Below, one piece after another: positions 6,070-51,159 of a stretch of DNA of 51,401 bases. The stretch is from the IMG/VR virus record IMGVR_UViG_3300023297_000013, positions 1-51,401 of that record; one strand, 5' to 3'. Source of the DNA: a virus (taxonomy: Duplodnaviria > Caudoviricetes). The translations under genes and the position numbers were made by a program. Position 1 is the first letter of the stretch, and the number at the start of each line of letters is the position of its first letter. Under the pieces are notes generated by a model. That model saw nothing but the letters and a program-made list of their open reading frames with translations. It did not search any database and was not told where the DNA came from.

Positions 6070-6078
6070 TCGTCTTCT

Positions 6079-6348: not shown

Positions 6349-6379
6349 TTCGCTTCCTTCTTCCTTAATTATATTCTAA

Positions 6380-14019: not shown

Positions 14020-14057
14020 ATACTTCTACCTCCTGCTTCTATTTTTATTCATCCTTA

Positions 14058-14074
14058 TTTGAAGTTAACTCTAC
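14058..14074 (+). promoter_or_regulatory. 17-bp dispersed motif TTTGAAGTTAACTCTAC (putative operator)
   Basis: Identical copies at 23417-23433 (reverse) and 41693-41709; near copies at 50002-50018 and 51088-51104. Confidence 0.6.
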
Positions 14075-27493: not shown

Positions 27494-28458
27494 ATCAATT
27501 CCCTAATCCCAACTCTTTTATTTTTTTCCCATGGCCTTGCAATTATTTCTGACATTGTTTTGTCAACTGTATTTTCTTCTCGTGCCCAGTCTACTTCTTC
27601 TTTTGTAGGTATTGGCAATGTTGCTTTACCCATTTTGTCCGGTAAGAATCCAACCCTGTAAGATATTGCATCACACCATTTGCATGGTATGAAATTCCTG
27701 TTTCTATCGTATAATAATTTTCTTGCGATATCGAATTCCTTGCCGTTCCAAATATCGTCTAAGTTCCCTTCCTTTTTTACTTCTCCACAATAGTAATGCC
27801 CCCTCCAATCATTACAACAAATAGCAATCTTACCATCCCATCTAATACTCAATTCCCTAAACGGCTTTGCGCATCTCTTCTTCATTGGAGAAAATAATGA
27901 AGGAGCGGCACACCCACAATGATTATTCAAAACGCTATGCCCCCCAGTTTTAGCATCTTGTATATCTTTTATATAGATAACTTTTTTGGTATCGATTCGA
28001 AACTTTTTATGTGGGCTTTCACCTCCAGGATATTCTTCGCCTTTTACTTTTGATTTGATTTTCTTTGAGAATGGATTATGACTATAATCATCTATACCAA
28101 GAATATTTATTCCATTAGAAAATAATCTTTTTACTTTTTCTTTTGGCGAAGGAAGAAGTCCAATCCCGTTCGTCAACATCGTTAATTGGTTTTGTGGAAG
28201 ATAACTTCTAAATATTTTTATAATTTCTAAATGTCTTGGATTTAAGGTAGGCTCGCCATGCATAGCAAACTCAATACGTGACCCCCATTTTGTTGCACCA
28301 ATTTGCTTTGCGATATTTTTACTACATTCTAACGACATAAATTTACATTCGTTTGGTTTTTTTCTTATGCCACGTATACCACAAAATTTACAAAATAAAT
28401 TACAGCCTTCTGTAAGCTCAACTTGTATTGCAAATGGTGGTTCTTGTTTTTCTTTCAT
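27490..28458 (-). CDS. radical SAM protein with SPASM/twitch domain
   Basis: CNLFCKFC cluster motif, HGEPTLNP, TNG, then CAKPF...ICCNDW...CKWC. Confidence 0.9.
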   Translation of the reverse strand: MKEKQEPPFAIQVELTEGCNLFCKFCGIRGIRKKPNECKFMSLECSKNIAKQIGATKWGSRIEFAMHGEPTLNPRHLEIIKIFRSYLPQNQLTMLTNGIGLLPSPKEKVKRLFSNGINILGIDDYSHNPFSKKIKSKVKGEEYPGGESPHKKFRIDTKKVIYIKDIQDAKTGGHSVLNNHCGCAAPSLFSPMKKRCAKPFRELSIRWDGKIAICCNDWRGHYYCGEVKKEGNLDDIWNGKEFDIARKLLYDRNRNFIPCKWCDAISYRVGFLPDKMGKATLPIPTKEEVDWAREENTVDKTMSEIIARPWEKNKRVGIRELI

Positions 28459-29237
28459 TTTATAATTTTCCCTTCTCTATCCAGCGCCCATCCAAATTCG
28501 GAAAGATTAATTTCGCGTAACTCATTATCATTCAAAACTTTTTTTAATTCAGATATAATTCCAAACTCCTCTATGTAGACTTTATACCTATTAACAAGAT
28601 CTTCAGGAGCTGCAGTTTTTTTAATGCCGGTAAACGAAGACCCCCCACCATAACTATGGATTTTATCTACCATATGGCCATCATTATTCGGAAGCCCCAA
28701 TCTCTTCGCAATTTTAATACGATATTTCTTTTTAGTCAACCAGTCATTATAGTTTAATCTAATACAAAAATTAAAGTTTTTATTAAGAAGAAGTTTTTTC
28801 CAATGAGCAATGCATTCGGAATACCATCCAGGAGGAGTGAATTTTTTATGTCTGCTATCAAATTTTAATCGGCTTGCGACATAGTTATATACGTCTCGAA
28901 CGACAATAATATATTTAATGTGACTATTTATTATCCCATATTTTTTATGCCTATACAGGCCATCTGAATATCTTAACGGGTCTTCGTATGTAGTAATAAC
29001 AAACGAATGAGATATTTTCAATCTTCCCCTTTCATATTCTCTCAATTGGATTTCGTTATTCGCATTATGGAACGGATATTTTATATTCCAATACTTGGTT
29101 GGACGACTCCACTTTACATTCGGCCGAAGAGAATTAATTAATACGCCCGATTCTTCAAAATGAGATGCGACCCATTCAACAATCGCATGGCCACCAGACC
29201 TTCTTTGGAAAAAGAGTCTATATTCTATTTGAGCCAT
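28455..29237 (-). CDS. PAPS-dependent sulfotransferase-fold protein
   Basis: QRRSGGHAI (5'-PSB-like loop), VVRDVYNYVAS (3'-PB-like), LNYNDW; two genes upstream of cysC in the same coupled string. Confidence 0.65.
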   Translation of the reverse strand: MAQIEYRLFFQRRSGGHAIVEWVASHFEESGVLINSLRPNVKWSRPTKYWNIKYPFHNANNEIQLREYERGRLKISHSFVITTYEDPLRYSDGLYRHKKYGIINSHIKYIIVVRDVYNYVASRLKFDSRHKKFTPPGWYSECIAHWKKLLLNKNFNFCIRLNYNDWLTKKKYRIKIAKRLGLPNNDGHMVDKIHSYGGGSSFTGIKKTAAPEDLVNRYKVYIEEFGIISELKKVLNDNELREINLSEFGWALDREGKIIK

Positions 29238-30061
29238 GATCTAATTCCTCCATTCGCCCTTCCCTTTTCATTAAAACTTTTCTTCCATTGTATAATGACG
29301 TCGATTCTTACTTTGCTATCAAAACCTTTCCATACTTTTGAACTTTCTTTTTTAACTACCCTTACGTATCTTGGAAACTTTTGTGCTAATAAAATAGCAC
29401 TTTCTTTTTGCATTTTAGATGTTCTGTATAAAGAGCAACCTCCATCAGCACCACTCTGATTTTGGCTCCATACATACTTATACGTAACACGATTTTTAAA
29501 TCCAAGTTGAAACAATGATAGCGTTACTAAAAAGTCTTCCATAACAAGCTGCTTACCATGCTTGTTTTCAAGAGAATCAAATGATACATTATGCTTTTCT
29601 TTTAACTCAATCATCTTTTCGCAATTATACGCATACGCATTATTCATTCTTGTAACTTCCAGATAATCTTCCTCTATTCTATTGTTACCGAATCTTTGAC
29701 TTATTCCTACATGTACCAATCCCTCTTCGAGCCAGCCTTCAAGGAGCATAACCATCTCAGCAAATTCTTTAGGACTACACCTATGCAATTTTAATTCTTT
29801 ATTACGAACAGAAAAATCCATATCATCATCTAACATCAATGCATATTTCCTTTTACTGTTCTCAAGAATCCATTGTCTTGTTTTACATATCCCCTTCTCA
29901 GGACATTCTATAACATTCGACCCATATAGTTCTTTATATCTTTTAAAATCTTTTTTATCAACCACAATGAAAGTATTTTTTATTAATCTTTTAGGTATAA
30001 AATTAAAGGTTCTTTGTTTTTCTGGTCTTCTATGGCTTGGTATATATATGGCTATCTTCAT
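29225..30061 (-). CDS. TET-associated (TAGT/GREB1-like) GT-A glycosyltransferase
   Basis: IYIPSHRRP, GICKTRQWIL, MLDDD, MEDFLVTL, GGCS motifs. Confidence 0.8.
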   Translation of the reverse strand: MKIAIYIPSHRRPEKQRTFNFIPKRLIKNTFIVVDKKDFKRYKELYGSNVIECPEKGICKTRQWILENSKRKYALMLDDDMDFSVRNKELKLHRCSPKEFAEMVMLLEGWLEEGLVHVGISQRFGNNRIEEDYLEVTRMNNAYAYNCEKMIELKEKHNVSFDSLENKHGKQLVMEDFLVTLSLFQLGFKNRVTYKYVWSQNQSGADGGCSLYRTSKMQKESAILLAQKFPRYVRVVKKESSKVWKGFDSKVRIDVIIQWKKSFNEKGRANGGIRSWLK

Positions 30062-30086
30062 AATTTTAATTCCCCTACTACTTCTT

Positions 30087-31514
30087 CTACTTCGTTAAAT
30101 CAATTCCTTCCTTTACCCATCTGGCCTCGTACTCACTTGGATTATAGACGTAAACATAATTATCTTCTTCGTCCATTCTAATAGGCATCATTTTTCCATG
30201 AAAATAATTTCTTGGATTTCCAGGAGACCTGAGATTATTCCACGTTTCCCTTGCAAAATCTAAGTACGTTATACCTCGCCTCTGACTTGCAGTCATTCCT
30301 GTAACACCAATATGATCCTGACCAAAAGTAGAGTCGCTTAAAAATGGACTTTCCTTTGGATCAAAAACTTTGCTAAATTTAAAATGAACAATTTTACCAT
30401 CACGATGAAATTTTTTTCTGGCTTCTTTTAGGGCGTAAGTCAATTGGCTCTTTCCCCAATTTTCCATTTCCTTATTCTCTTTATAGGTATCAGGCAACCC
30501 ACAACAACAACCAGACATCCCTAACTCTTTATAGTCGGGGTCACTACATGAAAATAAAATATCATTATCTACACAAAACGTATACATCTTTTTTACAATC
30601 TTCTCTTTCACTAATCTGTTAAGTCGCATGTATCCGCCTCGTTCACTTGGACTTAATGCTTTAAAATATTCTAACAAATCTTTTGTTCCTGTTAATTCTC
30701 CAAGCCATTTATACCTCTTAGCAATATGCTCATTATGCCTTTGGTCAATTGCCATGAACTCTGTACTTATCGCATTTATTCCCGCTTCTTTTGCTTGATG
30801 AAGTAAATCGTCAAGACCAATATCAGAAATTCCTATAATAAAAGGTCGAAGACGAAGTACGGTATAGTACCCCATATCTGATAAATGTTTTAATGCCTTT
30901 ATCCTTCTGCTCGTAACAGGGACTCCTATTTCTACTTGCTTACTCATTTCATCTGAAGGACAAACAATAGATACCTGAAAAGCAAAATTCTTTTGATGTG
31001 CATATTTTGTAAATAACTTCTCAAAGTTCGGACGGAAAACAGCCGATCCCTTAAAACTAAAAAGAGTTGGATAGCTTTCTTTTCCCAAAGCAGAAACAAT
31101 CTTATACCCGACTCCATTAACTTTTTCAAAATTACAGAAAGGAGAAGCAAGACCACCCCAATGAAATACAAACCTCTTAGAAAAAAAGTTCTTATGCATT
31201 GCCTTGAGTCTACTTGTTGGAGGCTTTCCCTTAATAGTAGCAACAAGCTTCTTCTCGTCTACAGAATGTAACTTATGAGAAAAGCTTGGATTTTGGCTTT
31301 TCATATAATATGCAAAACAGTATGTACACCCCATCGAGCAATAAGAATATTGGTCGAAGGTCATCGGTAAAGAACAATCCATAAACTCAGAACTTATTCT
31401 CGGACTGATATAAGTTCTGGATTTGTCTATTTTCATCCCCCTATTTTCTCGAATAAATTCCTGAGAGTCTCTTGTTACTTTCTTTTTTAAATCATCAAAC
31501 GATTCTTTTTTCAT
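30087..31514 (-). CDS. radical SAM protein, spore photoproduct lyase-like branch
   Basis: DQYSYCSMGCTYCF, RRIKAL, LRLRPFIIG, additional CCCG cluster. Confidence 0.8.
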   Translation of the reverse strand: MKKESFDDLKKKVTRDSQEFIRENRGMKIDKSRTYISPRISSEFMDCSLPMTFDQYSYCSMGCTYCFAYYMKSQNPSFSHKLHSVDEKKLVATIKGKPPTSRLKAMHKNFFSKRFVFHWGGLASPFCNFEKVNGVGYKIVSALGKESYPTLFSFKGSAVFRPNFEKLFTKYAHQKNFAFQVSIVCPSDEMSKQVEIGVPVTSRRIKALKHLSDMGYYTVLRLRPFIIGISDIGLDDLLHQAKEAGINAISTEFMAIDQRHNEHIAKRYKWLGELTGTKDLLEYFKALSPSERGGYMRLNRLVKEKIVKKMYTFCVDNDILFSCSDPDYKELGMSGCCCGLPDTYKENKEMENWGKSQLTYALKEARKKFHRDGKIVHFKFSKVFDPKESPFLSDSTFGQDHIGVTGMTASQRRGITYLDFARETWNNLRSPGNPRNYFHGKMMPIRMDEEDNYVYVYNPSEYEARWVKEGIDLTK

Positions 31515-35233: not shown

Positions 35234-35433
35234 TGCTAAGAACAGGATTCGAACCTGCAATAAGTTTTGTTAGTCCTCTCGGCTTCATCGCTTCAACGCT
35301 TTCGCTCCACTCCACCTTCATACTCCATAGCAAACTTACAAACTTTTGGTTATTATAGAATCGGTTACCAATGATAAACACTTCGAAAAGATATTCTGAA
35401 AAATATCCTGTTTACCAATCCCGCTACCTTAGC
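35234..35433 (-). ncRNA. tRNA-like RNA 2 (200 nt, large internal domain)
   Basis: Acceptor GCTAAGG/TCTTAGC, D-loop-like GATTGGTAAAC, T arm GCAGG-TTCGAAT-CCTGT. Confidence 0.65.
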
Positions 35434-35445
35434 AATTTTCTCAAC

Positions 35446-35462
35446 ATTTATATTATAACACG
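35446..35462 (-). promoter_or_regulatory. extended -10 promoter CGTGTTATAATATAAAT for tRNA-like RNA 2
   Basis: TGnTATAAT just upstream of the acceptor stem; identical to 35631-35647. Confidence 0.7.
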
Positions 35463-35509
35463 TTTTAAAAAAAAGTTACAGCTAATTAAAAAATAATTAA
35501 TAGAGGAAC

Positions 35510-35618
35510 TAATGAAGACGAGATTTGAACCCGTACTGCTTGCCTAAAGAATATCGCCGGATTTGAACCAATCAGATCGACCCTGTGGATCGTGCATTAC
35601 CAATTCTACCACCCCATC
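35510..35618 (-). ncRNA. tRNA-like RNA 3 (109 nt, two T-loop-like hairpins)
   Basis: Acceptor GATGGGG/CTTCATT with G-U pairs, D loop AATTGGTAA, GGTTCAAATC occurs twice. Confidence 0.55.
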
Positions 35619-35630
35619 AATTTCTCCAAT

Positions 35631-35647
35631 ATTTATATTATAACACG
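35631..35647 (-). promoter_or_regulatory. extended -10 promoter CGTGTTATAATATAAAT for tRNA-like RNA 3
   Basis: Identical 17-mer to 35446-35462 at the same spacing from the acceptor stem. Confidence 0.7.
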
Positions 35648-35649
35648 TT

Positions 35650-37269
35650 TTAAAAAGAAGTTCCAGATAATCTATATTTTTTCCCACGGAAGAAAAGTCT
35701 GGAATTGTCAACCATTGGTTCTGCCGTAACCAGCCTCTGTGTTATAAGAACTTCGTGTTTAACACTAAACATAATATGCCTATGAAATAAAACATTCATT
35801 CTTGTGATATTCAATTCTTTCTCATCATCGGTTTGATTAATTGCAAGGCGAACATCTAAATGAGAATCTTTTGTTTTAGATTCTGAAGTTGACATCTGAT
35901 CTAAAGCATACTGAGTTCTACTGGTTTTTGTAGCTTGATCAGCAGTAAGAACAAGACAGTTCATTTCTCCTGCCATTCTTGCGGCCTTCTTCCATTTTCT
36001 ATCAACATCAATTCTTTCCTGTAAATTACCAGCTTCAGGTGCAAGAATATCCAAATAATCAAAAACAATTATATCTGGAACCCAACCAGTTCTGTCAACA
36101 TAACGACGAACATAATCATAAACTTCATCAAAAGTAACGGAAAATCTCGGAAAGCATTTTACTCTTAAATTAGAAAGCCCAGTCATTCTATTTCTATTAA
36201 TGGCTTTAGCAACTCTTCCATTTGATATTGGCATAATTCTTGTTTTGTCAAACCAAATTGTAGGAATGAATCTTTTAGAAGAAGCAGCATTTCTGCGAAT
36301 ATTAGGATCGTTTCTGCACTGAGTACAAACTTTCCAGCCTTCCCGATTCATAAAGTCAACAACTTCCGTACTATCTTTAAATAATCCTTTTTTATTTTTC
36401 AAGGTACTTAAAATTCTACAAGTCCCATTCTGATTATTTTCACAATCAAAAACTGGATAGATTACTTTCTGTGACCGCTTTTTATTTGTAGTAAGTGTAA
36501 GCCTTCTTCTTGTTCTGTTTCTAACAATACTTTCGCCAAGTTCCAGATTTATTATTAGAACTTTTTTCCTTTGATAAAGTGCCGCCTGAAAAGCCATTTC
36601 CTGAAGAAAATAACTCTTACCGGTTTTCTCTGTTCCCGTTATAGCAACAAGCCATGTCCTATTAAGCGAACCAACCATGTGATGCAAATCACCATCAAAC
36701 TGAAAAGCAACGTCAGCCGCACTATGAGATTCATCATGATTAACGAGATCTTCGCTTGAGTATGGAATAATCGTCCCAAGGGTCTCATCTTCTTCATTCT
36801 TGTTTAATACAGGATACGTTGATACAATTTTTTCTGCTTCTTCGTATTGTCCTTTGTCTATCTTATCTTGTGCCTTCAATATTCTTTCAGATATTTCTCT
36901 CTTTCTTATAAAGTCTAACAAAACTTCATTACGAATATAAGCAGGATCGACCGAATCTTCTTGATAAAGAATAAACTCTTCAGCAAGACGATCTAAGTAA
37001 TCATCTATTATTTCACAATCCCCTTTTGATAAATTTTTCTTTTTCTCTTCAAAGACTTTTTGGATTGTACGCCCAGGTGCTTTATGATGTTGTGCATGGT
37101 ATCTAATCAACCAACGGAAGATTGGTTGAAAATATTTTGTAAAGTGTTTCGTTTTTAACTGTCCCGATTTATATCTGGAATAGCCGGAAAAAAGTACGGA
37201 AGTATTCATGATCATATATGACAAAACTAAAAACTCAGAATTGTCTTCTACTTTCTTTCTCATAATCAT
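35650..37269 (-). CDS. replicative DNA helicase (DnaB/T4 gp41-like, SF4)
   Basis: GTEKTGKS Walker A, INLEL, IIVFDYLDIL, LTADQ, SES motifs. Confidence 0.85.
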   Translation of the reverse strand: MIMRKKVEDNSEFLVLSYMIMNTSVLFSGYSRYKSGQLKTKHFTKYFQPIFRWLIRYHAQHHKAPGRTIQKVFEEKKKNLSKGDCEIIDDYLDRLAEEFILYQEDSVDPAYIRNEVLLDFIRKREISERILKAQDKIDKGQYEEAEKIVSTYPVLNKNEEDETLGTIIPYSSEDLVNHDESHSAADVAFQFDGDLHHMVGSLNRTWLVAITGTEKTGKSYFLQEMAFQAALYQRKKVLIINLELGESIVRNRTRRRLTLTTNKKRSQKVIYPVFDCENNQNGTCRILSTLKNKKGLFKDSTEVVDFMNREGWKVCTQCRNDPNIRRNAASSKRFIPTIWFDKTRIMPISNGRVAKAINRNRMTGLSNLRVKCFPRFSVTFDEVYDYVRRYVDRTGWVPDIIVFDYLDILAPEAGNLQERIDVDRKWKKAARMAGEMNCLVLTADQATKTSRTQYALDQMSTSESKTKDSHLDVRLAINQTDDEKELNITRMNVLFHRHIMFSVKHEVLITQRLVTAEPMVDNSRLFFRGKKYRLSGTSF

Positions 37270-41671: not shown

Positions 41672-41735
41672 TGTATTTTCTCCTCTTTCTTGTTTGAAGT
41701 TAACTCTACAACTTAAAGCTATTTAAGATTATTCT

Positions 41736-42715: not shown

Positions 42716-42845
42716 TACGCCTCCTTTTTGTTACGCGATTATATCCTCTTTAAAAGATTAAAATAATAAATGATTCTTAATATATTCTTAATATAAAGTA
42801 AAGCTTTTTATTCATTGAGTCCTTGTAACGAAAGGTTCCTACAAG

Positions 42846-42890
42846 CAACTTCACCCAAACCAAGTATTTGAAGTGGTTTGGGTGAAGTTG
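42846..42890. other. perfect 17-bp hairpin closing the early region
   Basis: CAACTTCACCCAAACCA-11 nt-TGGTTTGGGTGAAGTTG. Confidence 0.8.
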
Positions 42891-42913
42891 AAGCGAATTG
42901 AAAACCTTATCCA

Positions 42914-43783
42914 TTATATATCAAGTTTTCTTTTTAACTTAAAGTCGGGGATTTTCTGAAGGCTTCCAATAATCTTTTCTAACTTATTGCCAAGCTTGTT
43001 TCGAAAGTCTTCATTCCCTTTAAGTCTTTCAGCACTTGTCCCCCTCATCTGTTTTTGTAAATCTTTCATAATAGTGTGTAACTTTTTTTCGTCTACATGA
43101 TCTTTCCACAGGCCATCCCATCTTTTTAGAAACTTGCTAATAGACCCGACCGTACCAGCATTGATTTTACCACTGTCGCATTGTCCAGCTAATTTTTCAA
43201 TTCGCTTGAACAGCATATTTCCCACGACATTGATCGTCATTTCTTCCATTTTGGAAATCATTTGCGTGAACTTTTCCTGTTCCCTTTTGTAAAGGGCAGG
43301 CGAAAGGGTCTTGGCTTCTTTAGACGGAGCGGCAAAATGTAAAAAGTTCCAGAAAAAATAAAACTTGTTTTTGATTCCTGGAATTGATGGATAATTCTTT
43401 TTGTCATAAAATTCAGGATACTGCTCCTGAAAATTACTTTCCATTTCTTTTATATTGTCGCACAAAATCTTCACTCTGTTTTTGTACTCCTCTCGAAACT
43501 CGTTGAGTTTTTTATCGACTTCAACAATTTTCTCTTTTGGAATCCAGAAAACATTATCAATTGGAAAAGGTAAAGAATTCCGAAGAAGCAAGCCTTTAGC
43601 CGACCTACGAATCGTACTCAAATCTTTAAGGTAAGTTCTGTCACTAATAATATCTTGTCTTGCTCGAACTATTTCGCGTGGTATTCTTTTACCAAAATGT
43701 TTACTTGGCATCTTAATAATAGCATCCCAACGACCCATTTTCAAACTACAAAAAACACCTTCTTTTAATTGATTCTCTTTCAT
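42914..43783 (-). CDS. DUF3150-like protein
   Basis: GVFCSLKMGRW, SLPFP...FWIP, YPS...KF pattern; association with AAA ATPase. Confidence 0.6.
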   Translation of the reverse strand: MKENQLKEGVFCSLKMGRWDAIIKMPSKHFGKRIPREIVRARQDIISDRTYLKDLSTIRRSAKGLLLRNSLPFPIDNVFWIPKEKIVEVDKKLNEFREEYKNRVKILCDNIKEMESNFQEQYPEFYDKKNYPSIPGIKNKFYFFWNFLHFAAPSKEAKTLSPALYKREQEKFTQMISKMEEMTINVVGNMLFKRIEKLAGQCDSGKINAGTVGSISKFLKRWDGLWKDHVDEKKLHTIMKDLQKQMRGTSAERLKGNEDFRNKLGNKLEKIIGSLQKIPDFKLKRKLDI

Positions 43784-43817
43784 AATAATCCCCCTTTTAT
43801 TTATTTATTTTGGTTTA

Positions 43818-43874
43818 CCTCATCAGTACATAAGTTACCATCTTATGCAGACTCGGGCTACGCCCGAGTTTCGG
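43818..43874 (-). ncRNA. type II hammerhead ribozyme, copy 1
   Basis: CC-GAAA-CTCGGGC(GTA)GCCCGAG-TC/TGCATAAG(ATGGTAA)CTTATGTA-CTGATGA-GG; predicted cleavage between 43850 and 43849. Confidence 0.93.
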
Positions 43875-43977
43875 ATATCCTCTTTTAATAAAGAATTAAA
43901 AAAAGAAATAAAACGATTAAAATAAGAATCGAAGAATATTTACATAATTCTTTAAGCATTTGTTTTAGCATTGTTCC

Positions 43978-44184
43978 TTACCTCTCATCTTTTGTAATTT
44001 TATAATTATCTTTATCTCCATTAAAATAATATCGAACTTTACTTTCAGATACCCTTAATGTTCTTGCTAATTGGACAATGAATTGTCTGTGAGCAATTAC
44101 TGAATTTTTTGCAGAAGTCCAAATTTTATGAACTTCTCCATACCAATTGAATTGACCAAAATAAAGACATTTAAACTCTTTCAT
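43978..44184 (-). CDS. hypothetical protein
   Basis: 68-aa ORF with GAGG RBS. Confidence 0.7.
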   Translation of the reverse strand: MKEFKCLYFGQFNWYGEVHKIWTSAKNSVIAHRQFIVQLARTLRVSESKVRYYFNGDKDNYKITKDER

Positions 44185-44195
44185 TTTATTTCCTC

Positions 44196-44396
44196 TTAAG
44201 TAACATTAACATATTCCATTGTTACGCCAAGCAGGTGGTCATAATCTCCGTCCATTGCCTCTTTTAAATACTGGTCAATATATTCCTTATCAGCACCAGC
44301 GTCTTTTAAGACTTTAGTAACAACTCCCATAATTGCAAAGACATTGCTGCTTTCCCCAACAAGTTTTACTGTCGGAGTTTCTTTCGGTTTTTCCAT
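44196..44396 (-). CDS. conserved small phage hypothetical protein
   Basis: VKLVGESSNVFAIMG...GDYDHLL motif; GGGGGA RBS after ribozyme 2. Confidence 0.75.
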   Translation of the reverse strand: MEKPKETPTVKLVGESSNVFAIMGVVTKVLKDAGADKEYIDQYLKEAMDGDYDHLLGVTMEYVNVT

Positions 44397-44420
44397 AATA
44401 TCCCCCTTATTAATTGTTTA

Positions 44421-44477
44421 CCTCATCGGTACATAAGGAACAACCTTATGCAGACTCGGGCTACGCCCGAGTTTCGG
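44421..44477 (-). ncRNA. type II hammerhead ribozyme, copy 2 (variant loop I; core CCGATGA)
   Basis: Stem I TGCATAAGG(TTGTT)CCTTATGTA; U4C change in the core. Confidence 0.8.
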
Positions 44478-44489
44478 TTAAGATTAAAA

Positions 44490-45899
44490 TTAAATATCTA
44501 ATTGCCTTTTGCCATTATTAAACTGGATTTCCTCAGCAGGGATTGTTCGGCCTTTTGCCCAATCCCGCAACCCGTTAATATTCTCAGCCATTGTTTTGGC
44601 CTGAGGTATAATACATTTAACAGCTTCTTCAAAACCAATTCCCCTCATATCAGCGATATGAACTAATGCTTCAACTTCTGCCCCTGAAAAATCCTTCATT
44701 AAATCCCTTCTCCATCTTTTTGGAAGACTTAATCCGGCCTTCTTAGCATAATATTTTAAAATCTCATCTTTAACATTATCTGTCGGCAAATCAATAAAAA
44801 ATGGAGATGTATCCCAACGACCTGGTCTGATATATTCTCCAGGAATACCAGAAAAGGAATTTGCTGTTCCAACAATATAAACCCCTTTTGGACGATCTTG
44901 AAGAAAGTCAAGCCAACGGCCTGTCGCTCTTCGTGTAGTTCCACTATCCAATGAACCGTCTGACCCCGAACCAGCAAATTGTTTCTCAAATTCATCGATA
45001 AGAACAAGGCAATCACCGATTGCCGTAATAAGATTAATTACAGTATCTATATTACTGTCCGTTTCTCCTTGATACTTACTAAACAATTTTCCCATATTGA
45101 TAGATAATCCAAACTTTCCTGTTTCGCCGACAACTGCTTTCATAAGAGCAGTCTTGCCGCATCCTGGAGGACCAATCGTCATAATTCCTTTTGACTTTGG
45201 ATTATTAATTGTTCCCATAATAAACTTCTTAATATTCTTGTACCCGATTATATTTGAAAAATTTGTGGTCGGTTCCAAGACATCAAGAAAACCAGTCTTG
45301 CGAATTGTAATAGCCTTGTAATCATTAATAGTTTTTCTTGAAAATGATTTGCCTTCTGTTTCTACAAAAGACAAGGCCAAGATTTGTTCCAGTTCCACTC
45401 TTGTAAACCCCTTACATGACGATATTAAACGAGTAAGACTGTCACCCTTAGGAATTACCTTTGAATTTGGAGCGACATGGTTAATGGCGTCTGATATCTC
45501 TACTTCATTTGGCAATGGCAAATTAAGCAACAAAAAATCTTTCTGTAATTCCAACGGAATCTTTTCCACTGGAGAAACACAAATAATTGCCTTTCCTGCG
45601 CTTGCCCATGAAGCAAGGTTATCTTGTATAGTTTGAATTATCTGTGGTTTATCCGCATACCAATGAAAGTTATAAGCAAACAAAAGAGTAAAATCTTCTG
45701 CATTATTAAACTGCTCTAAGGTCTTCATTGGGTTCGGTTCAGCAGTACATGTCCACTCCATAATTTCATACTTTCCCCCATCCTTTCTTTCAAAAGAACG
45801 GAGCATTTCATAGACATTTTTTCGTACTCTATTTGGTTCAGAAGTTTTTAACCAAAAGGCTGGAAATCCTGCACGCAAATAATTTATAATCTTCTTCAT
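44490..45899 (-). CDS. AAA+ ATPase, Ycf46-like
   Basis: IPLEL, GPPGCGKT, LIDEFEK, VGTAN, RPGRWD, FSGAEVE, LRDWA motifs. Confidence 0.85.
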   Translation of the reverse strand: MKKIINYLRAGFPAFWLKTSEPNRVRKNVYEMLRSFERKDGGKYEIMEWTCTAEPNPMKTLEQFNNAEDFTLLFAYNFHWYADKPQIIQTIQDNLASWASAGKAIICVSPVEKIPLELQKDFLLLNLPLPNEVEISDAINHVAPNSKVIPKGDSLTRLISSCKGFTRVELEQILALSFVETEGKSFSRKTINDYKAITIRKTGFLDVLEPTTNFSNIIGYKNIKKFIMGTINNPKSKGIMTIGPPGCGKTALMKAVVGETGKFGLSINMGKLFSKYQGETDSNIDTVINLITAIGDCLVLIDEFEKQFAGSGSDGSLDSGTTRRATGRWLDFLQDRPKGVYIVGTANSFSGIPGEYIRPGRWDTSPFFIDLPTDNVKDEILKYYAKKAGLSLPKRWRRDLMKDFSGAEVEALVHIADMRGIGFEEAVKCIIPQAKTMAENINGLRDWAKGRTIPAEEIQFNNGKRQLDI

Positions 45900-45933
45900 A
45901 ATAATCCCCCTTTTATTTATTTATTTTGGTTTA

Positions 45934-45990
45934 CCTCATCAGTACATAAGTTACCATCTTATGCAGACTCGGGCTACGCCCGAGTTTCGG
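45934..45990 (-). ncRNA. type II hammerhead ribozyme, copy 3
   Basis: Identical 57-nt core to copy 1. Confidence 0.93.
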
Positions 45991-45991
45991 A

Positions 45992-46141
45992 TTAAAGCTT
46001 TCTTATAATCACTTCCGATTCACAGTCTATCCAAAAAGAAACAAGTGCCTTTTTTGATTCGTGTTTGACCTTTTCAATTACAATTTCAACTTCATTTGTT
46101 TTTTTGTGAACTACTGCTGCTATGATTCTAATTTCTACCAT
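45992..46141 (-). CDS. 49-aa hypothetical protein (below ORF-track cutoff)
   Basis: MVEIRIIAAVVHKK...IIRKL*, AAGGA RBS, stop 1 nt before ribozyme 3. Confidence 0.55.
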   Translation of the reverse strand: MVEIRIIAAVVHKKTNEVEIVIEKVKHESKKALVSFWIDCESEVIIRKL

Positions 46142-46169
46142 AATACTTGTCCTTTCTACTCTTTAAAAT

Positions 46170-46559
46170 TTAACATACAAGAGTAATTTTTACTGCCCCT
46201 GTTTCTTTTATATTTTCAGAAAAGGAATTTTTTACAATATCCATTGGTACGTTTTGAAAAATAAGTTTAGTGCTATATTCTTGCAAAACTTCACCAAGCT
46301 TTTTCATCGTATGAGGCTGAGAACCAAAATGGTCATAAGAAATTTGACCTTCTTTATTAATAGCAATTGGATATCTCCAGCCATCAAGAGAAATAGAAGC
46401 AACAGCCTGAACAGTATTGGAACCAAAGAATTTAACTGTTTGCTCACTCTGCTCATTTAACCTATTCAAAAAATTAACCTTGTGCCCTTTATTTAGAGCA
46501 ACATTACAAAACAAATTGACATCTTTTACTTTAATAGCATATGTTGATGTATGGCTCAT
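46170..46559 (-). CDS. DUF1257 / Ycf35-like protein
   Basis: MSHTST...IKVKD start, GWRYPI, located between DUF2997 and Ycf46-like ATPase. Confidence 0.75.
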   Translation of the reverse strand: MSHTSTYAIKVKDVNLFCNVALNKGHKVNFLNRLNEQSEQTVKFFGSNTVQAVASISLDGWRYPIAINKEGQISYDHFGSQPHTMKKLGEVLQEYSTKLIFQNVPMDIVKNSFSENIKETGAVKITLVC

Positions 46560-46570
46560 GGCAATCCCCT

Positions 46571-46777
46571 TTAGCCGCAGTGCCCTTCTGGAACAGGGTC
46601 TACGAGAATATTTCGTTCGTTGATTTCATAGTAACAATCCTTGTAATCAGTGTTGGTTCTTTTAAATAAATTATCTAAAAACTCCGTCGCTTCTTCACAA
46701 GAAGTACCACTAAAGCCATGAGCAGAAACTTCTATCGCCCCATCTTTACCGACAATGATTTCCACTGTTTTACTCAT
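46571..46777 (-). CDS. DUF2997-like protein
   Basis: IIVGKDGAIEV...GFSGTSCEEAT...YY motif. Confidence 0.8.
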   Translation of the reverse strand: MSKTVEIIVGKDGAIEVSAHGFSGTSCEEATEFLDNLFKRTNTDYKDCYYEINERNILVDPVPEGHCG

Positions 46778-46805
46778 ATTTTATCCTCCTTATTAAATTA
46801 GTTTA

Positions 46806-46862
46806 CCTCATCAGTACATAAGTTACCATCTTATGCAGACTCGGGCTACGCCCGAGTTTCGG
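46806..46862 (-). ncRNA. type II hammerhead ribozyme, copy 4
   Basis: Identical 57-nt core; 3' tail ACTA instead of ACCA. Confidence 0.92.
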
Positions 46863-46868
46863 ATTAGA

Positions 46869-47864
46869 TTAAATTGATTTTTTAATTCTGTAGAAGCTTT
46901 CATTCTGTGTCATTACCAAAGTAATTTCCATTCCCTCTTTTTTAAAACGACGGATGTTTCCCTTAACTCTACCATTTGCCTTTTTTGTAGGTAACTTAAA
47001 TTCCTTTTCCAAAAGGCCGACAAGCTCTGAAAGACTTATCCCCTTAATCATTTGTTCTTTAATCAAATCAGTGATTCTTTGTCTTACTGATTTTTCTTTT
47101 GGTTCTTTTAATTCTTTCTTATCAGCTTTCTTATCAGCTTTCTTATCAGCTTTCTTATCAGCTTTTTTATCACGTCTTTTTATTACTTTTTTATCACGTC
47201 TTTTTATTACTTTTTTATTTACTTTTTTATTTACTTTTTTATTTACTTTTCTCAAAGGGTCATTTTTTTCTTCAAACCCTTTTGGAAGAGTAACATTCGC
47301 CCTGTCATAAGCTGTTCGAAGAGCTTTTCTACAGGCCGTAACGTATCCTTTTGGTATTTTTTCATTTTTGTTTTCCCATAAAATATCAAGTTCGTTCAAA
47401 TGAAATAATGCTTTTTTGGAAACTTCCTGGTCAACATTATCAAAGAAAGGAAAGCCTGATGGAATATGAATTATCTGAACTACTCCACCTGACTTTTGTT
47501 TTGCTTCAAAGCAAGGAATTTTTATTCCTTCTACTTCTTCTTTTACTTCTTCTTTTACTTCTTCTTTTACTTCTTCTTTTACTTCTTCTTTTACTTCTTT
47601 TTTTGACTTCTTAACGGACTTGATTATGGGCTTGACAGGAGCAATAGACTTCTTTACTTCCTTTTTTAATCCTTTTGTCAAAGCTTCTGCAATTGTATCT
47701 TTAAAAACTTTGTAAGCCTTACATTTCGCACAGCTAACATCTTTAAGAGAAGCTTTCTTGTCCACAATCAAACCAGCCTGTTTTTTGTCGCAAAGTGCGC
47801 AACCATCAATTACTACATGAAGTACTCTTCCCTTTGGTGATTTTCCAAATTTTAATGCTGTCAT
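46869..47864 (-). CDS. Lys-rich hypothetical protein with N-terminal zinc finger and low-complexity repeats
   Basis: H...C...CAKC; EVKE, KKVN, KKAD repeats from 12-nt tandem units. Confidence 0.75.
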   Translation of the reverse strand: MTALKFGKSPKGRVLHVVIDGCALCDKKQAGLIVDKKASLKDVSCAKCKAYKVFKDTIAEALTKGLKKEVKKSIAPVKPIIKSVKKSKKEVKEEVKEEVKEEVKEEVKEEVEGIKIPCFEAKQKSGGVVQIIHIPSGFPFFDNVDQEVSKKALFHLNELDILWENKNEKIPKGYVTACRKALRTAYDRANVTLPKGFEEKNDPLRKVNKKVNKKVNKKVIKRRDKKVIKRRDKKADKKADKKADKKADKKELKEPKEKSVRQRITDLIKEQMIKGISLSELVGLLEKEFKLPTKKANGRVKGNIRRFKKEGMEITLVMTQNESFYRIKKSI

Positions 47865-47898
47865 AATAATCCCCCTTTTATTTATTTATTTTGGTTTA

Positions 47899-47955
47899 CC
47901 TCATCAGTACATAAGTTACCATCTTATGCAGACTCGGGCTACGCCCGAGTTTCGG
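47899..47955 (-). ncRNA. type II hammerhead ribozyme, copy 5
   Basis: Identical 57-nt core to copy 1. Confidence 0.93.
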
Positions 47956-47961
47956 TTATGT

Positions 47962-48885
47962 TTAAAATGAATCGATAAGTTTTGCAATATCTTTAACTTG
48001 TTTTATATTAAGTTCTTTGTCAATTCCCTTAATAGAATAAGAAAGTTTATTGTCTGTTTCGGTCGTTGCTATCACCTTTAACTTTTTATAGTGAACTTCT
48101 TTCGAATCATCAAAAACAACCATTCGTTGATTTCTACCATATGAATGACTGTAACGGTTCAAGATTTCTTCTTTCGTAATTCCGAAGGCCTCAATTAACT
48201 TCTCAATAAAAGTTGACTTTTTTTCTCTCTTTATTGCCATCTTTTCTGCCGCTTTCGTAATCTCAAGAATTATTTTCTCAATTCTTTTGTGAAGACTCTG
48301 TGCTAAGTTCTTTGCACCAAAATCTTTTTTTAACCTATCAGCAGAATAAGAATATAAACTACAACCAATTTTTAAGGAATAGCCTGTCTGCCGATAATTA
48401 ATACTTCTACTATATACGCCTTCTCTATATATAGAAAACATTACCGAAGCATTATTTTCACCTTCATAAAATTTCCTGATTATTTTCGTATTTTTTTCAT
48501 TAAGAAAATAATCAGGATTTTCTTTTTTTAAGTCGGCTTCAAGCTGTTTCCAGTTTTTTGCTTCCTCAAGTACTGCGGCCTTTTGTGCAATCTCTCTTAT
48601 AATTTCTCGCTCGCATTTTTTACACTGACCATTAGGATTTAAAGCACTTTTAATATCAACTCTTTTATGACAGACGTTACATTCGACAGCATCTCTGGCA
48701 CAAATAAAATCAGATTTAATAACCAACTTTTGTTCAAGCTCTTCAGCCTTGTTTATTAAGGTTTGCAGTGCATGAACTTTTTTAATTTCATTGTAAACCT
48801 TTATATCCGCGACCTTAACCTTGTCAGGATAACCATTTTTACCAACAATGATTTCTATTGTTTCACCATTATTAACTTCTTTCAT
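47962..48885 (-). CDS. hypothetical protein with CxxC...CxxC
   Basis: 307-aa ORF with AGGAGG RBS after ribozyme 6. Confidence 0.75.
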   Translation of the reverse strand: MKEVNNGETIEIIVGKNGYPDKVKVADIKVYNEIKKVHALQTLINKAEELEQKLVIKSDFICARDAVECNVCHKRVDIKSALNPNGQCKKCEREIIREIAQKAAVLEEAKNWKQLEADLKKENPDYFLNEKNTKIIRKFYEGENNASVMFSIYREGVYSRSINYRQTGYSLKIGCSLYSYSADRLKKDFGAKNLAQSLHKRIEKIILEITKAAEKMAIKREKKSTFIEKLIEAFGITKEEILNRYSHSYGRNQRMVVFDDSKEVHYKKLKVIATTETDNKLSYSIKGIDKELNIKQVKDIAKLIDSF

Positions 48886-48926
48886 AATAATCCTCCTTTT
48901 AAATGTTTATTAATTATTTTGGTTTA

Positions 48927-48983
48927 CCTCATCAGTACATAAGTTACCATCTTATGCAGACTCGGGCTACGCCCGAGTTTCGG
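48927..48983 (-). ncRNA. type II hammerhead ribozyme, copy 6
   Basis: Identical 57-nt core; abuts the stop codon at 48984. Confidence 0.93.
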
Positions 48984-49214
48984 TTAGTAAATACATTTTT
49001 TAGATAGTAAATGCAAATCATCTTCTGTTAAATAACTATTATTGTAAAGACCGGTTTTTATTGGAACTTTAATTCTTTCAGGAGCCCGTTTCCATCGCTT
49101 AACTTTTCCAGTGACTCTCCATCTTTGAGAAGAACCATCAGCATTTTTATTTATTGTGTGATATAGTATTTGTCCAATTTCTAATTTTTTTGCTTCTTCT
49201 AAAGTCAAAGTCAT
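48984..49214 (-). CDS. conserved small phage hypothetical protein
   Basis: NKNADG...RWRVTGKVKRWK...VPIKTGLY; AGGAGG RBS. Confidence 0.75.
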   Translation of the reverse strand: MTLTLEEAKKLEIGQILYHTINKNADGSSQRWRVTGKVKRWKRAPERIKVPIKTGLYNNSYLTEDDLHLLSKKCIY

Positions 49215-49241
49215 AATATATCCTCCTTATTAATTTTGGTT

Positions 49242-49305
49242 GCCTCATCAGTATCTGAATACCATTTCAGACAGACACCGAGGCTTTACGCCCCAGTGTT
49301 TCGGC
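49242..49305 (-). ncRNA. type II hammerhead ribozyme, copy 7 (divergent stems, intact core)
   Basis: GCC-GAAA-CACTGGGGC(GTAAA)GCCTCGGTG-TC/TGTCTGAA(ATGGTA)TTCAGATA-CTGATGA-GGC. Confidence 0.92.
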
Positions 49306-49317
49306 CTTTATTTACCC

Positions 49318-49515
49318 TTATTTACCTTTCGTGTAAATGTTTAAACCAATCATCGCACCACCAGTTTCCGGGATTTCACGGTTCCCAAGGGTCGATGAAA
49401 TTCTTGTATTTCCTTTTGGAGTAGTTTGTCCACGATGCTTTAAGTTGATTTCCAGTGTAAGCTTATTTCCCTTTACTTCATACTTTACATTTTCCGTTCC
49501 TTCTAACTTGTTCAT
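49318..49515 (-). CDS. conserved small hypothetical protein
   Basis: ISSTLGN...IGLNIY motif; AGGAGG RBS. Confidence 0.75.
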   Translation of the reverse strand: MNKLEGTENVKYEVKGNKLTLEINLKHRGQTTPKGNTRISSTLGNREIPETGGAMIGLNIYTKGK

Positions 49516-49556
49516 AATAATCCTCCTTTTAAATGTTTATTAATTATTTTGGTTTA

Positions 49557-49613
49557 CCTCATCAGTACATAAGTTACCATCTTATGCAGACTCGGGCTAC
49601 GCCCGAGTTTCGG
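49557..49613 (-). ncRNA. type II hammerhead ribozyme, copy 8
   Basis: Identical 57-nt core to copy 1. Confidence 0.93.
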
Positions 49614-49616
49614 ATT

Positions 49617-49934
49617 TTACATACCATTCTTTTTTCTAATTTTTTCTAAATTATCTTTTGTTTTCCATAAGATTGCAAGCCTCCAGAATCCTTCTGGATT
49701 AAGGTATTTATTGTATTCCTTTAAAAAATTCAATTCCCTTTCTTCTTCATCTGTTAAATTAAAATTGAATTTATTATCAATTTCTTTTTGCATCAAATCC
49801 ATTGTTCTGGCGGCATCAGCCTTATCATCAGCATAATAACATCTGCTTTCTACTCTTTTATTATTTTCATAATAAACAACTACCCATTCACAATAATCTT
49901 TTTTATATCTTAATTTTAAAATTGGCTTTGACAT
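49617..49934 (-). CDS. hypothetical protein, first gene of the early region
   Basis: AGGAGG RBS; YYADDKADA motif. Confidence 0.75.
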   Translation of the reverse strand: MSKPILKLRYKKDYCEWVVVYYENNKRVESRCYYADDKADAARTMDLMQKEIDNKFNFNLTDEEERELNFLKEYNKYLNPEGFWRLAILWKTKDNLEKIRKKNGM

Positions 49935-50766
49935 ATTTCCTCCTTAATTTAATTAGTTTATTTATAAGTTTCTACCTACTTAAAACCTATAATAAAAGGC
50001 TGTAGAGTTAACTACAAATAACCACAAATAATATTATAAGCTTTAAGTAGGCCACGATTTAAAACGAGTAGGCACTCAAATCGTGACTCACTAAAGGAGG
50101 AGGATTTTTTGCATCACCTTGCACCCTTACTCAGCTTATTCGGGGTGGTGTTTCCAGCATGTCTTAATGGATTTACTTTAGCATAAAAAATTATTAAAGA
50201 CAAAAAGCCTGCTTTATTAAACTAACATAATAAAGTCTATAATTTTTATTTTCAAACCAAGGAATTTAAAGACCCGCAATTCTACTGGATTTTAAGAGTG
50301 ATGGCTAACTTGTTCGCTTCTAATTAAGGAGGCTGATTTAACCTGTCAAATATAATTATATTTTTTACTTTTTAGCTGTCGGACACTACTGTCTTTTGAC
50401 GCTGGTAATTATTGGGTCGCCCCTATACCTTTATAGCAAAAAAGAAATTAATTATATCATTTCCCGCACAACGACGTTAAAATCCGGTTAAAGCCTTAAC
50501 ACGCCCTCCTATTTTTCTTTCGGTCAGGGCGAATATAAGTTAAGTAGCGAGGTAAGACAGCCACCCTATATCCAAACCTGAATTTCCAAAAAACAAGAAA
50601 ATTTCTTAAAAAACAAGAAAAAAGCCTGTTTTAACTAAAAATTTCATTCAACTCAGCTTTCCAAACGGTCTTTTTGACATTTTAGGCTATCCAAGCTTAT
50701 TTAAGGCTTCCGATGGGTGTGCCCGACTTTGTTAAAAAACCCGTTTTTACTAACTTTTGTTGCCTA

Positions 50767-50778
50767 TGTAAAAGAACA
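50767..50778 (-). promoter_or_regulatory. boxA-like antitermination motif TGTTCTTTTACA
   Basis: Close to the boxA consensus TGCTCTTTAACA; a possible promoter (TTTACA-17 nt-AATAGT) lies about 20-50 nt upstream. Confidence 0.45.
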
Positions 50779-51159
50779 ATTTAAACTTATCGTAAGTGAA
50801 CTATTACATACAAATAGTGCCTTGTAAAGGATTAAATGACCTTTTTATCATTTATTTGCAAATAAATTGATTTTAGGGCGTTTTTTAAATAAAGGGGCAT
50901 AATAGACTCATATAGGCATTTTATAATAAAGGGACATAATGGCCTTATTTTAGAATAAAAAGGGTTCTGAGGGTCTGTGAGGAAGCTTATTTTTAATGTG
51001 AGCTGTTACGTGCTAAAATAAGGTGTCAAAATTAAGATTATTTTAAAAGGTTATTAATTTGTAGTTATTTGTAGTTATTTGTAGTTATTTGTAGTTAACT
51101 CTATAAATAAAGCCTTAAAAATAACTAAAGGTTAAAAGGCCGCTACAGCCTGTTAAAAA

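What the first reader, a model, noticed from the sequence alone, without database searches (positions are those of the whole stretch)
43818..49613. Array of eight hammerhead ribozymes that punctuates the phage early operon gene by gene
Seen: a 57-nt element recurs at 43818, 44421, 45934, 46806, 47899, 48927, 49242 and 49557. On the coding strand it folds as a type II hammerhead: CC-GAAA-stem III-GUC cleavage site-stem I-CUGAUGA-GG. Seven of eight begin 0-12 nt after a stop codon, and all are followed by a short AT-rich spacer, a strong RBS and an ATG. Predicted cuts (3' of 49589, 49274, 48959, 47931, 46838, 45966, 44453, 43850) give pieces of 315, 315, 1028, 1093, 872, 1513 and 603 nt, each starting with a 5'-OH hairpin and ending in a hairpin plus cyclic phosphate. 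Established: hammerheads occur in phage and bacterial intergenic regions. Inference: a protein-independent mRNA maturation system that turns one long early transcript into stabilised, insulated mRNAs, much as RNase III sites do in T7 early RNA.
Basis: partly seen in the sequence, partly recalled or inferred. Interest (0 to 1): 0.93.

Follow-up and report, generated by a model that had tools for sequence, protein, structure and literature searches.

The report
Eight hammerhead ribozymes punctuate phage operon
Eight predicted self-cutting hammerhead RNAs sit between the gene blocks of one operon in an uncultured lake phage and likely chop its long message into gene-sized pieces, an arrangement described in 2011; related phages fill the same gaps with pistol ribozymes or long hairpins, which would make the purpose of such arrays testable.

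Summary
Eight type II hammerheads lie on the coding strand at the stated places. Seven pass Rfam's cut-off; the eighth has a U4C core and a compensated pseudoknot. Each starts 0-13 nt after a stop codon and is predicted to cut 56-73 nt before a start codon.

The idea is not new: Perreault 2011 described clustered hammerheads flanking phage genes, proposed this processing, and showed triple arrays cleaving. This scan also noted similar arrays on other DNA.

What the relatives add:
- 85 hammerheads in 15 of 28 sequences, none on the opposite strand, with loop-tail covariation.
- The slot before the AAA ATPase gene holds a structured element in 19 of 21 loci: hammerhead 12, rearranged pistol-like 1, long hairpin 6, interleaved on the tree.
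- Element-bounded gene blocks are reordered while replication genes stay collinear, and one extra cassette appears at lower depth in four runs.

Most likely the array cuts one transcript into hairpin-capped pieces, and the repeats also serve as shuffling points. Cleavage, 'early' timing and stabilisation are untested; no RNA data exist. Five of seven inner pieces carry one gene, two carry three.

The parts
49548..49615 (-). Type II hammerhead 1, predicted cut 3' of 49589; 2-bp stem II; loop UGGU / tail ACCA
   Evidence: (39.3 bits)
49234..49306 (-). Type II hammerhead 2, divergent stems, predicted cut 3' of 49274; 3-bp stem II
   Evidence: (48.1 bits)
48918..48985 (-). Type II hammerhead 3, predicted cut 3' of 48959; shares a 103-nt identical run with copy 1
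   Evidence: (42.2 bits)
47890..47957 (-). Type II hammerhead 4, predicted cut 3' of 47931
   Evidence: (42.2 bits)
46797..46864 (-). Type II hammerhead 5, predicted cut 3' of 46838; tail ACUA gives one G-U pair in the pseudoknot
   Evidence: (38.2 bits)
45925..45992 (-). Type II hammerhead 6, predicted cut 3' of 45966
   Evidence: (39.3 bits)
44412..44479 (-). Type II hammerhead 7, U4C core variant (CCGAUGA), compensated pseudoknot (loop UUGU / tail ACAA), predicted cut 3' of 44453
   Evidence: below Rfam reporting
43809..43876 (-). Type II hammerhead 8, predicted cut 3' of 43850
   Evidence: (39.3 bits)
49617..49934 (-). First ORF, 105 aa, phrog_7884 (unknown function), upstream of hammerhead 1
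49318..49515 (-). 65-aa ORF alone on a 315-nt piece
48984..49214 (-). 76-aa ORF alone on a 315-nt piece; family shared with L152 and L154
47962..48885 (-). 307-aa ORF of no known family, alone on the 1028-nt piece
46869..47864 (-). 331-aa lysine-rich ORF, conserved in the clade, alone on the 1093-nt piece
45992..46777 (-). Three-ORF block on the 872-nt piece: DUF2997 (68 aa), conserved 129-aa ORF, 49-aa ORF
44490..45899 (-). AAA ATPase, 469 aa (PF00004, phrog_8638), alone on the 1513-nt piece
43885..44396 (-). Three-ORF block on the 603-nt piece: phrog_1933 (66 aa), 68-aa ORF, 28-codon hydrophobic ORF
42914..43783 (-). DUF3150 gene (289 aa) after the last hammerhead
49935..51159 (-). Non-coding leader with sigma-70-like sites (e.g. 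50480-50451, extended -10); promoter use inferred

Best explanation
Eight type II hammerhead folds sit on the coding strand between the gene blocks of one phage operon, are predicted to self-cleave, and likely cut one long transcript into one- to three-gene mRNAs with a hairpin at each new end. Shown by sequence: every copy has the catalytic core, three stems and a loop I / tail pseudoknot, begins 0-13 nt after a stop codon and is followed by an A-rich spacer, a strong ribosome-binding site and ATG 56-73 nt past the cut. Follows from hammerhead chemistry: the upstream piece would end in stem III plus one base and a 2',3'-cyclic phosphate; the downstream piece would start with a 5'-OH paired into stem I. 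Inferred: these ends protect the pieces and uncouple each block's decay and translation from its neighbours. Inferred side effect: the ribozyme-spacer-RBS repeat (62-103 identical nt among six copies) also acts as a homologous-recombination point, so genes are gained, lost and reordered as ready-made expression cassettes.
For: Rfam 7 of 8; chance control. In relatives found through the AAA ATPase: 85 descriptor hits in 15 of 28 sequences, all on the coding strand, 0 on the other. After dropping 4 duplicates (L149) and 1 misparsed copy, 78 of 80 cut 56-77 nt before a start codon and 66 of 80 begin within 15 nt of a stop. Loop-tail pairing is cognate-specific: 4.67 vs 3.86 in shuffles (71 unique pairs, 0 of 2000 reach it) and 4.61 vs 3.98 within genomes (63 pairs, 0 of 2000). 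Stems use up to six pair types (partly built into the descriptor). In two near-complete relatives all Rfam matches lie in this one region. L159 mixes 5 Rfam pistols with 4 descriptor hammerheads in the same slots, so a second cleaving class substitutes. The slot before the AAA gene is structured in 19 of 21 loci, with types interleaved on the tree. Published triple arrays cleave in vitro and in E. coli (PMC3088659). A ribozyme-plus-hairpin insulator raised mRNA about twofold in E. coli (PMC6206723 abstract).
Against: No cleavage, transcript or end-mapping data were obtained. Stem II is 2-3 bp and is not predicted by ViennaRNA (probability 0.16 or less), so folding relies on the pseudoknot. Copy 44421 has U4C, which lowers activity in vitro (PMC3088659 Discussion). 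4 of 18 consensus hammerheads tested in that paper were inactive. Six of 21 AAA slots hold hairpins with no known ribozyme and 2 hold nothing obvious, so cleavage may be dispensable. Predicted ribosome-site accessibility barely changes on cutting (0-0.17), so no translational switch is evident. Ribozyme cleavage can also trigger decay, as for glmS (PMC6765202 passage). 'Early' is untested.
Confidence: 0.65

Rival explanations
1. The repeats are kept mainly as recombination points that let the phage add, drop and reorder accessory genes, like T4-type PeSL cassettes; cleavage is incidental.
For: Four gene blocks occur in at least five orders among 14 of 16 loci, while replication genes are collinear in 13 of 13 loci showing two or more. 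DUF2997 and its partner, never separated by an element, keep their order in 15 of 15. A 99.9% identical contig (L014) diverges exactly at the 5' edge of copy 48927 and has another copy's spacer behind copy 47899. Its extra gene is a separate 426-444-nt contig ending in the ribozyme, at lower depth than its neighbour in four runs. Precedent: PMC2839356 abstract.
Against: Recombination needs identity, not a catalytic core, yet cores and pseudoknots are kept in arrays whose copies are only about 0.58-0.61 alike (L148, L153, L157). Strand and spacing are fixed. The extra cassette's 5' end was not seen, and L014 could be an assembly chimera across the repeat.
Confidence: 0.14
2. Cleavage is used to destabilise or down-tune the transcript, exposing 5'-OH ends to a host 5' exonuclease so that these genes are expressed only briefly.
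For: glmS ribozyme cleavage leads to degradation (PMC6765202 passage). All genes have very strong ribosome-binding sites, which could need a matching off-switch.
Against: Type II geometry leaves a base-paired 5' end and a 3' hairpin, and the rearranged pistol of L152 also leaves a hairpin on the downstream piece. RNase III single cuts that leave 3' hairpins protect RNA (PMC1540722 passage).
Confidence: 0.1
3. The pieces are ligated into circular or spliced RNAs, or mobilised as retro-elements, because each carries a 5'-OH and a cyclic phosphate.
For: The end chemistry fits ligation (established); PMC3088659 raises the possibility. A host ligase could act.
Against: That study detected neither product. 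No RtcB in 0 of 5 related records (0 of 3 near-complete), no reverse transcriptase in 0 of 5 (0 of 4), none in the window's 50 scanned proteins.
Confidence: 0.05
4. The hairpins themselves are the functional part (exonuclease roadblocks or insulators), and the catalytic core is a replaceable or near-neutral extra.
For: L154 and L167 carry a short GC hairpin followed by a long hairpin and a similar tail, without the core, inside a 100/99 clade with hammerhead-bearing L148 and L172.
Against: Cores are intact in 77 of 80 copies at position 4 and the pseudoknot covaries; pistols substitute in L159. The long hairpins (15-26 pairs at the AAA and DUF3150 slots of L151, L154, L158, L167, L178) exceed the 11-bp helix that RNase III needs (PMC1540722), so they may be cut by a protein.
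Confidence: 0.06

Closest known systems
Clustered hammerhead ribozymes flanking genes in prophages (Perreault et al. 2011, PMC3088659; Results parts 1-2 of 3, Discussion part 1 of 2 and passages read; supplements not opened)
   Same: Several hammerheads close together between single genes or short blocks; type II with loop I / 3'-tail pseudoknot and short stem II; same proposed role.
   Different: The arrays tested there were triple; here eight, six of them identical, and up to 14 or more in relatives. The clade shows no tyrosine integrase. I did not see Figure 3 or the supplements, which may show larger clusters.
Hammerhead_II, Rfam RF02276
   Same: Seven of eight copies pass the gathering score over the full model.
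   Different: Copy 44421 (U4C) falls below reporting.
RNase III processing of the bacteriophage T7 polycistronic mRNA precursor (PMC3867540 and PMC1540722, passages read)
   Same: One long transcript cut at several intergenic signals, leaving protective hairpins.
   Different: Here the cut is RNA-catalysed and leaves 5'-OH and cyclic phosphate; RNase III leaves 5'-phosphate and 3'-OH (recalled). Relatives with long hairpins may be true analogues, untested.
PeSL regulatory cassettes of T4-type phages (PMC2839356, abstract read)
   Same: Repeated intergenic expression elements in a variable gene region, tied to gene gain, loss and shuffling.
   Different: PeSLs are promoter plus terminator stem-loop; these repeats are ribozyme plus spacer plus ribosome-binding site, with no terminator on the coding strand.
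RiboJ synthetic insulator (PMC6206723, abstract read)
   Same: Self-cleaving RNA placed before a ribosome-binding site to standardise the 5' end.
   Different: Engineered; a different ribozyme class (hairpin ribozyme, recalled).

Membership tests
Type II hammerhead ribozyme (RF02276) | Core GAAA, NUH cleavage triplet and CUGANGA in type II order | tested here: met
   8 of 8 have GAAA and GUC; 7 of 8 CUGAUGA, one CCGAUGA
Type II hammerhead ribozyme (RF02276) | Stems I and III closed by loops, stem II open | tested here: met
   Stem III probability 1.0, stem I 0.75-0.98; stem II has 2-3 complementary pairs but probability 0.16 or less
Type II hammerhead ribozyme (RF02276) | Loop I / 3'-tail pseudoknot | tested here: met
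   Four loop-tail variants in the window all pair, one with compensatory changes; cognate score beats 2000 of 2000 shuffles across the clade
Type II hammerhead ribozyme (RF02276) | Rfam gathering score | tested here: met
   7 of 8; copy 44421 not met
Type II hammerhead ribozyme (RF02276) | Self-cleavage 3' of C17 | not testable with these tools
   No RNA run listed
Clustered phage hammerhead arrays (Perreault 2011) | Several hammerheads flanking single genes or short blocks in a phage genome | tested here: met
   Virus record with terminase, DnaE, DnaB-like helicase, primase; five one-gene and two three-gene pieces
Clustered phage hammerhead arrays (Perreault 2011) | Cleavage of the native polycistronic RNA into the expected pieces | not testable with these tools
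   Needs transcription assay
T7-type RNase III early-mRNA processing | Intergenic double-helical RNase III sites | tested here: not met
   The window's elements are ribozyme folds with 7-9-bp stems; works-like resemblance only. Relatives' hairpins were not tested for RNase III determinants
T7-type RNase III early-mRNA processing | One transcript from host-polymerase early promoters | tested here: inconclusive
   Candidate sites in the leader, no enrichment over shuffles
PeSL cassettes | Each repeat holds a sigma-70 promoter and a terminator stem-loop | tested here: not met
   No terminator-like site on the coding strand at any copy; only weak 9-of-12 promoter matches in two spacers
PeSL cassettes | Gene shuffling at the repeats | tested here: inconclusive
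   Reordered blocks and one breakpoint at a repeat edge; assembly artefact not excluded
Retrozyme-like or ligated circular RNA element | Linked reverse transcriptase or RNA ligase | tested here: not met
   PF00078 0 of 5 records, PF01139 0 of 5; host enzymes not excluded
Integron-like cassette array | Tyrosine integrase nearby | tested here: not met
   PF00589 0 of 5 records, 0 of 4 near-complete; none among 50 window proteins

The most novel reading that the evidence does not exclude
This phage clade runs a modular expression operon whose every block starts with an interchangeable RNA-cutting device: hammerhead, canonical pistol, a naturally rearranged pistol, or an RNase III-type hairpin, swapped repeatedly at the same slots. 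The repeated device also serves as the recombination point for cassette exchange, and a conserved anti-Shine-Dalgarno leader, released by the first cut, would regulate the set. It would show that phage ribozymes are a protein-free stand-in for RNase III processing.
Probability: 0.3. Interest if true: 0.8.

Novelty: new member of a known kind. Interest (0 to 1): 0.5.

Why it matters
The role of bacterial and phage self-cleaving ribozymes is stated as open in reviews (PMC6765202, PMC6155905; passages). The array alone repeats a 2011 observation at higher copy number. Its value is the natural experiment around it: orthologous slots filled by two ribozyme classes, a rearranged pistol-like RNA and long hairpins allow swap tests that separate cutting, end protection and recombination. 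The uniform ribozyme-spacer-RBS part is also a natural counterpart of synthetic insulators.

Tried and rejected
RNA evidence: no RNA holder listed among 24 runs; both read-laying runs used DNA contigs and say nothing on expression. No contig joint that removes a whole cassette with long sides was seen; the one joint is explained by the repeat. Search for more context of the extra L014 gene found only L014's own contig. A pattern scan for further rearranged pistols returned 120 loci, none of which passed the structure filter; across all 367 loci only L152 and its duplicate L177 did (that filter found only 2 of the 5 Rfam pistols of L159, so it is insensitive). A general hammerhead pattern scan was sampled at 2 of 64 parts and not analysed further. 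The DUF3150 alignment could not be used for a locus scan. No Pfam family above cut-off for the conserved partner of DUF2997, the lysine-rich protein or the extra gene; a paper search on the DUF names gave nothing relevant by listing. Terminator or promoter role of the repeat rejected. Translational switch by ribosome-site masking not supported. Plus-strand role rejected: the hairpins fold on either strand but core and genes are on the minus strand only. Paper searches for a described clade-level swap or a natural permuted pistol found none by listing; subscription papers, including the 2015 pistol discovery paper and its supplements, were not seen.


Full report
Setting. The window is a whole linear virus record, 65% complete, 33% GC. 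It encodes a terminase large subunit, DnaE-type polymerase, DnaB-like helicase, primase and RecA, so it is a tailed-phage-like genome. The stretch is held by salt lake metagenome runs. A relative's contig is filed in a Desulfobacteraceae genome bin (L247), a weak hint at the host group. All genes around the finding read on the minus strand, from a 1.2-kb non-coding leader through the array into the replication genes.

Observation. Seven pass Rfam Hammerhead_II (38.2-48.1 bits, cut-off 37). Six are identical over 57 nt, with identical runs of 62-103 nt; 44421 matches 52 of 57 and has a U4C core; 49242 is a different 62-nt hammerhead. A descriptor finds 8 on the coding strand and 0 on the other; 95 of 100 shuffles give none and 5 give one. 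Each element begins 0-13 nt after a stop codon, the last after a 28-codon ORF, and is predicted to cut 56-73 nt before an ATG with a strong ribosome-binding site. The loop of stem I pairs with the 3' tail in all copies, and copy 44421 changes both sides together. Stem II is 2-3 bp and is not predicted by nearest-neighbour folding; PMC3088659 reports active type II ribozymes with one or two pairs there. Five of seven inner pieces carry one gene and two carry three.

Prior art. PMC3088659 (Results parts 1-2 of 3, Discussion part 1 of 2 and passages read) describes multiple hammerheads flanking single genes or short blocks in prophages, proposes processing into operon- or gene-length mRNAs, shows three tandem arrays cleaving in vitro and one in E. 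coli, and found no spliced or circular products. It notes that U4C lowers activity in vitro but supports viroid infectivity. Reviews call the biological role open (PMC6765202, PMC6155905; passages) and note that different ribozyme classes share gene neighbourhoods. Earlier notes of this scan report seven-copy arrays, hairpin arrays and a rearranged pistol on other DNA.

Relatives. The AAA ATPase gene led to related loci at 42-67% identity. The descriptor found 85 hammerheads in 15 of 28 sequences, all on the coding strand, up to 14 in L153. After removing 4 duplicates (L149 lies within L171) and 1 misparsed copy, 78 of 80 cut 56-77 nt before a start codon, 66 of 80 start within 15 nt of a stop (9 farther, 5 not found), 70 of 80 have GUC and 3 have U4C. 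Loop-tail pairing is specific to the cognate partner: 4.67 against 3.86 in shuffles and 4.61 against 3.98 within genomes, 0 of 2000 shuffles reaching either. Anchored stem pairs hold in 68-75 of 75 unique copies with up to six pair types, against 6-52 of 75 when slid by one (the descriptor demands stems, so the percentages are partly circular). In two near-complete relatives all Rfam matches lie in this single region. The window's array is the most uniform (mean 0.90 within, 0.55-0.66 to others), whereas L148, L153 and L157 are 0.58-0.61 within.

Slot swapping. Several relatives have other elements in the same position, between stop codon and spacer-RBS. L159 mixes 5 Rfam pistols with 4 descriptor hammerheads. 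L152 has six pistol-like elements whose P1 hairpin, carrying the pseudoknot loop, lies 3' of the core; Rfam scores three of them weakly with P1 missing. The synthetic permuted pistol was opened at stem III, a different place (PMC10353319 passage). L151, L158, L175, L176 and L178 have long hairpins with an internal loop; L154 and L167 have a short GC hairpin followed by a long one. None of the hairpins reaches an Rfam cut-off. Before the AAA gene, 19 of 21 readable in-clade loci have a structured element: 12 hammerheads, 1 pistol-like, 6 hairpins; 2 have none and 2 more were cut off (with L170 and L175 corrected). On the AAA tree the types are interleaved: L154 and L167 group with hammerhead-bearing L148 and L172 (100/99), and L158 and L175 with L157 and L159 (100/99) (one gene, so recombination could contribute). 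Inference: the slot is under selection for an RNA-level signal, and cutting is the function that hammerhead and pistol share. The hairpins are long enough for RNase III (11-bp minimum; internal loops give single cuts and protective 3' hairpins; PMC1540722 passages), as in the T7 precursor (PMC3867540 passage), but this was not tested.

Shuffling. Four blocks (lysine-rich gene, DUF2997 plus partner, AAA ATPase, DUF3150) occur in at least five orders among 14 of 16 loci. DUF2997 and its partner have no element between them and keep their order in 15 of 15. Replication genes are collinear in 13 of 13 loci that show two or more; L151 and L156 have another genome layout. L014, 99.9% identical to the window, diverges exactly at the 5' edge of copy 48927 with a gene absent from the window and has a swapped spacer behind copy 47899. 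In four runs that gene lies on its own contig (444, 426, 444 and 151 nt) at depth 17, 7.9, 4.8 and 2.1 against 49, 45.2, 15.8 and 13 for the neighbour, while the window's own cassette there is at full depth. This fits an extra cassette in part of the population, but depth is not a share of genomes, the 5' end was not seen, and an assembly chimera or a sister phage is possible. Precedent for repeat-mediated shuffling: PeSLs (PMC2839356 abstract). No RtcB, reverse transcriptase or tyrosine integrase was found in 5 related records each; the window encodes RecA.

Mechanism. Shown: fold, strand, spacing, conservation, substitution by a second ribozyme class. Established chemistry: cleavage 3' of C17 gives a cyclic phosphate and a 5'-OH. 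Inferred: co-transcriptional cutting of one transcript into one- to three-gene mRNAs with hairpins at both ends (0.65), with recombination as a side role. Against: no RNA data, weak stem II, one U4C copy, hairpin-only relatives, little predicted change in ribosome-site access, and the glmS case where cutting starts decay. 'Early' rests on position and on unenriched promoter matches.

Verdict. Real, a new member of a known kind. The array itself is a dense example of a 2011 observation. The clade comparison, not found in print in my searches (listings only, subscription papers unseen), makes the open question of function directly testable. Interest 0.5.

Noticed in passing
window 50094-50105 (minus strand); L147:5644, L148:9130, L151:6294, L152:6812, L153:424, L157:4940, L158:3140, L159:6071: An anti-Shine-Dalgarno-like 9-mer (TCCTCCTCC), complementary to the array's ribosome-binding sites, occurs once on the coding strand of the window and once in the leader before the array in 8 relatives (9 of 19 sequences scanned; several lack the leader), whatever element type follows. 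No consistent reverse-strand ORF by eye.
   Followed up: partly
L152:8495, 8815, 9891, 11432, 12512, 13447: Six pistol-like elements with P1 moved to the 3' side, P1 pairs covarying among copies; a natural rearrangement not found in my paper searches, noted before by this scan.
   Followed up: partly
L151:6813-11764; L158:3626-12728; L175, L176, L178, L181: Repeated long hairpins with a conserved internal loop in the ribozyme slots; RNase III sites or an unknown ribozyme.
   Followed up: partly
L154:4947-13501; L167:125-10869: Twin hairpins (short GC stem then 16-20-bp stem) with a tail like that of the hammerheads but no core; possibly derived from hammerheads by loss of the core.
   Followed up: partly
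L014:1-287: Extra gene of no known family directly before a ribozyme copy, at lower depth in four runs; candidate polymorphic cassette.
   Followed up: partly
window 42831-42895 (minus strand): A 17-bp hairpin follows the DUF3150 gene, after the last ribozyme; possible terminator or processing site.
   Followed up: no
window 50003-50031 and 51075-51103; also 14042-14074, 41677-41709: A 29-nt inverted repeat (97%) brackets the non-coding leader, and its core recurs at two other intergenic sites; possible protein-binding motif.
   Followed up: no
L176:1790-1850: A pistol-like core whose pseudoknot partner seems to lie directly 5' of P2, not in a P1 loop.
   Followed up: no
L149, L150, L171: Many hammerheads carry one extra base between the core and stem II (18 of 75 unique copies) and CUGACGA or CUGAAGA cores.
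   Followed up: no
window 26888-31514, 4655-7949, 23464-26823: APS kinase, two radical SAM proteins, a TET-associated glycosyltransferase, GDP-mannose dehydratase and a C-methyltransferase suggest a DNA or surface modification pathway; DnaE is fused to a uracil-DNA glycosylase domain.
   Followed up: no
window 35412-35671: Two 75-nt repeats around a weak tRNA-like Rfam match (28.8 bits, cut-off 29).
   Followed up: no
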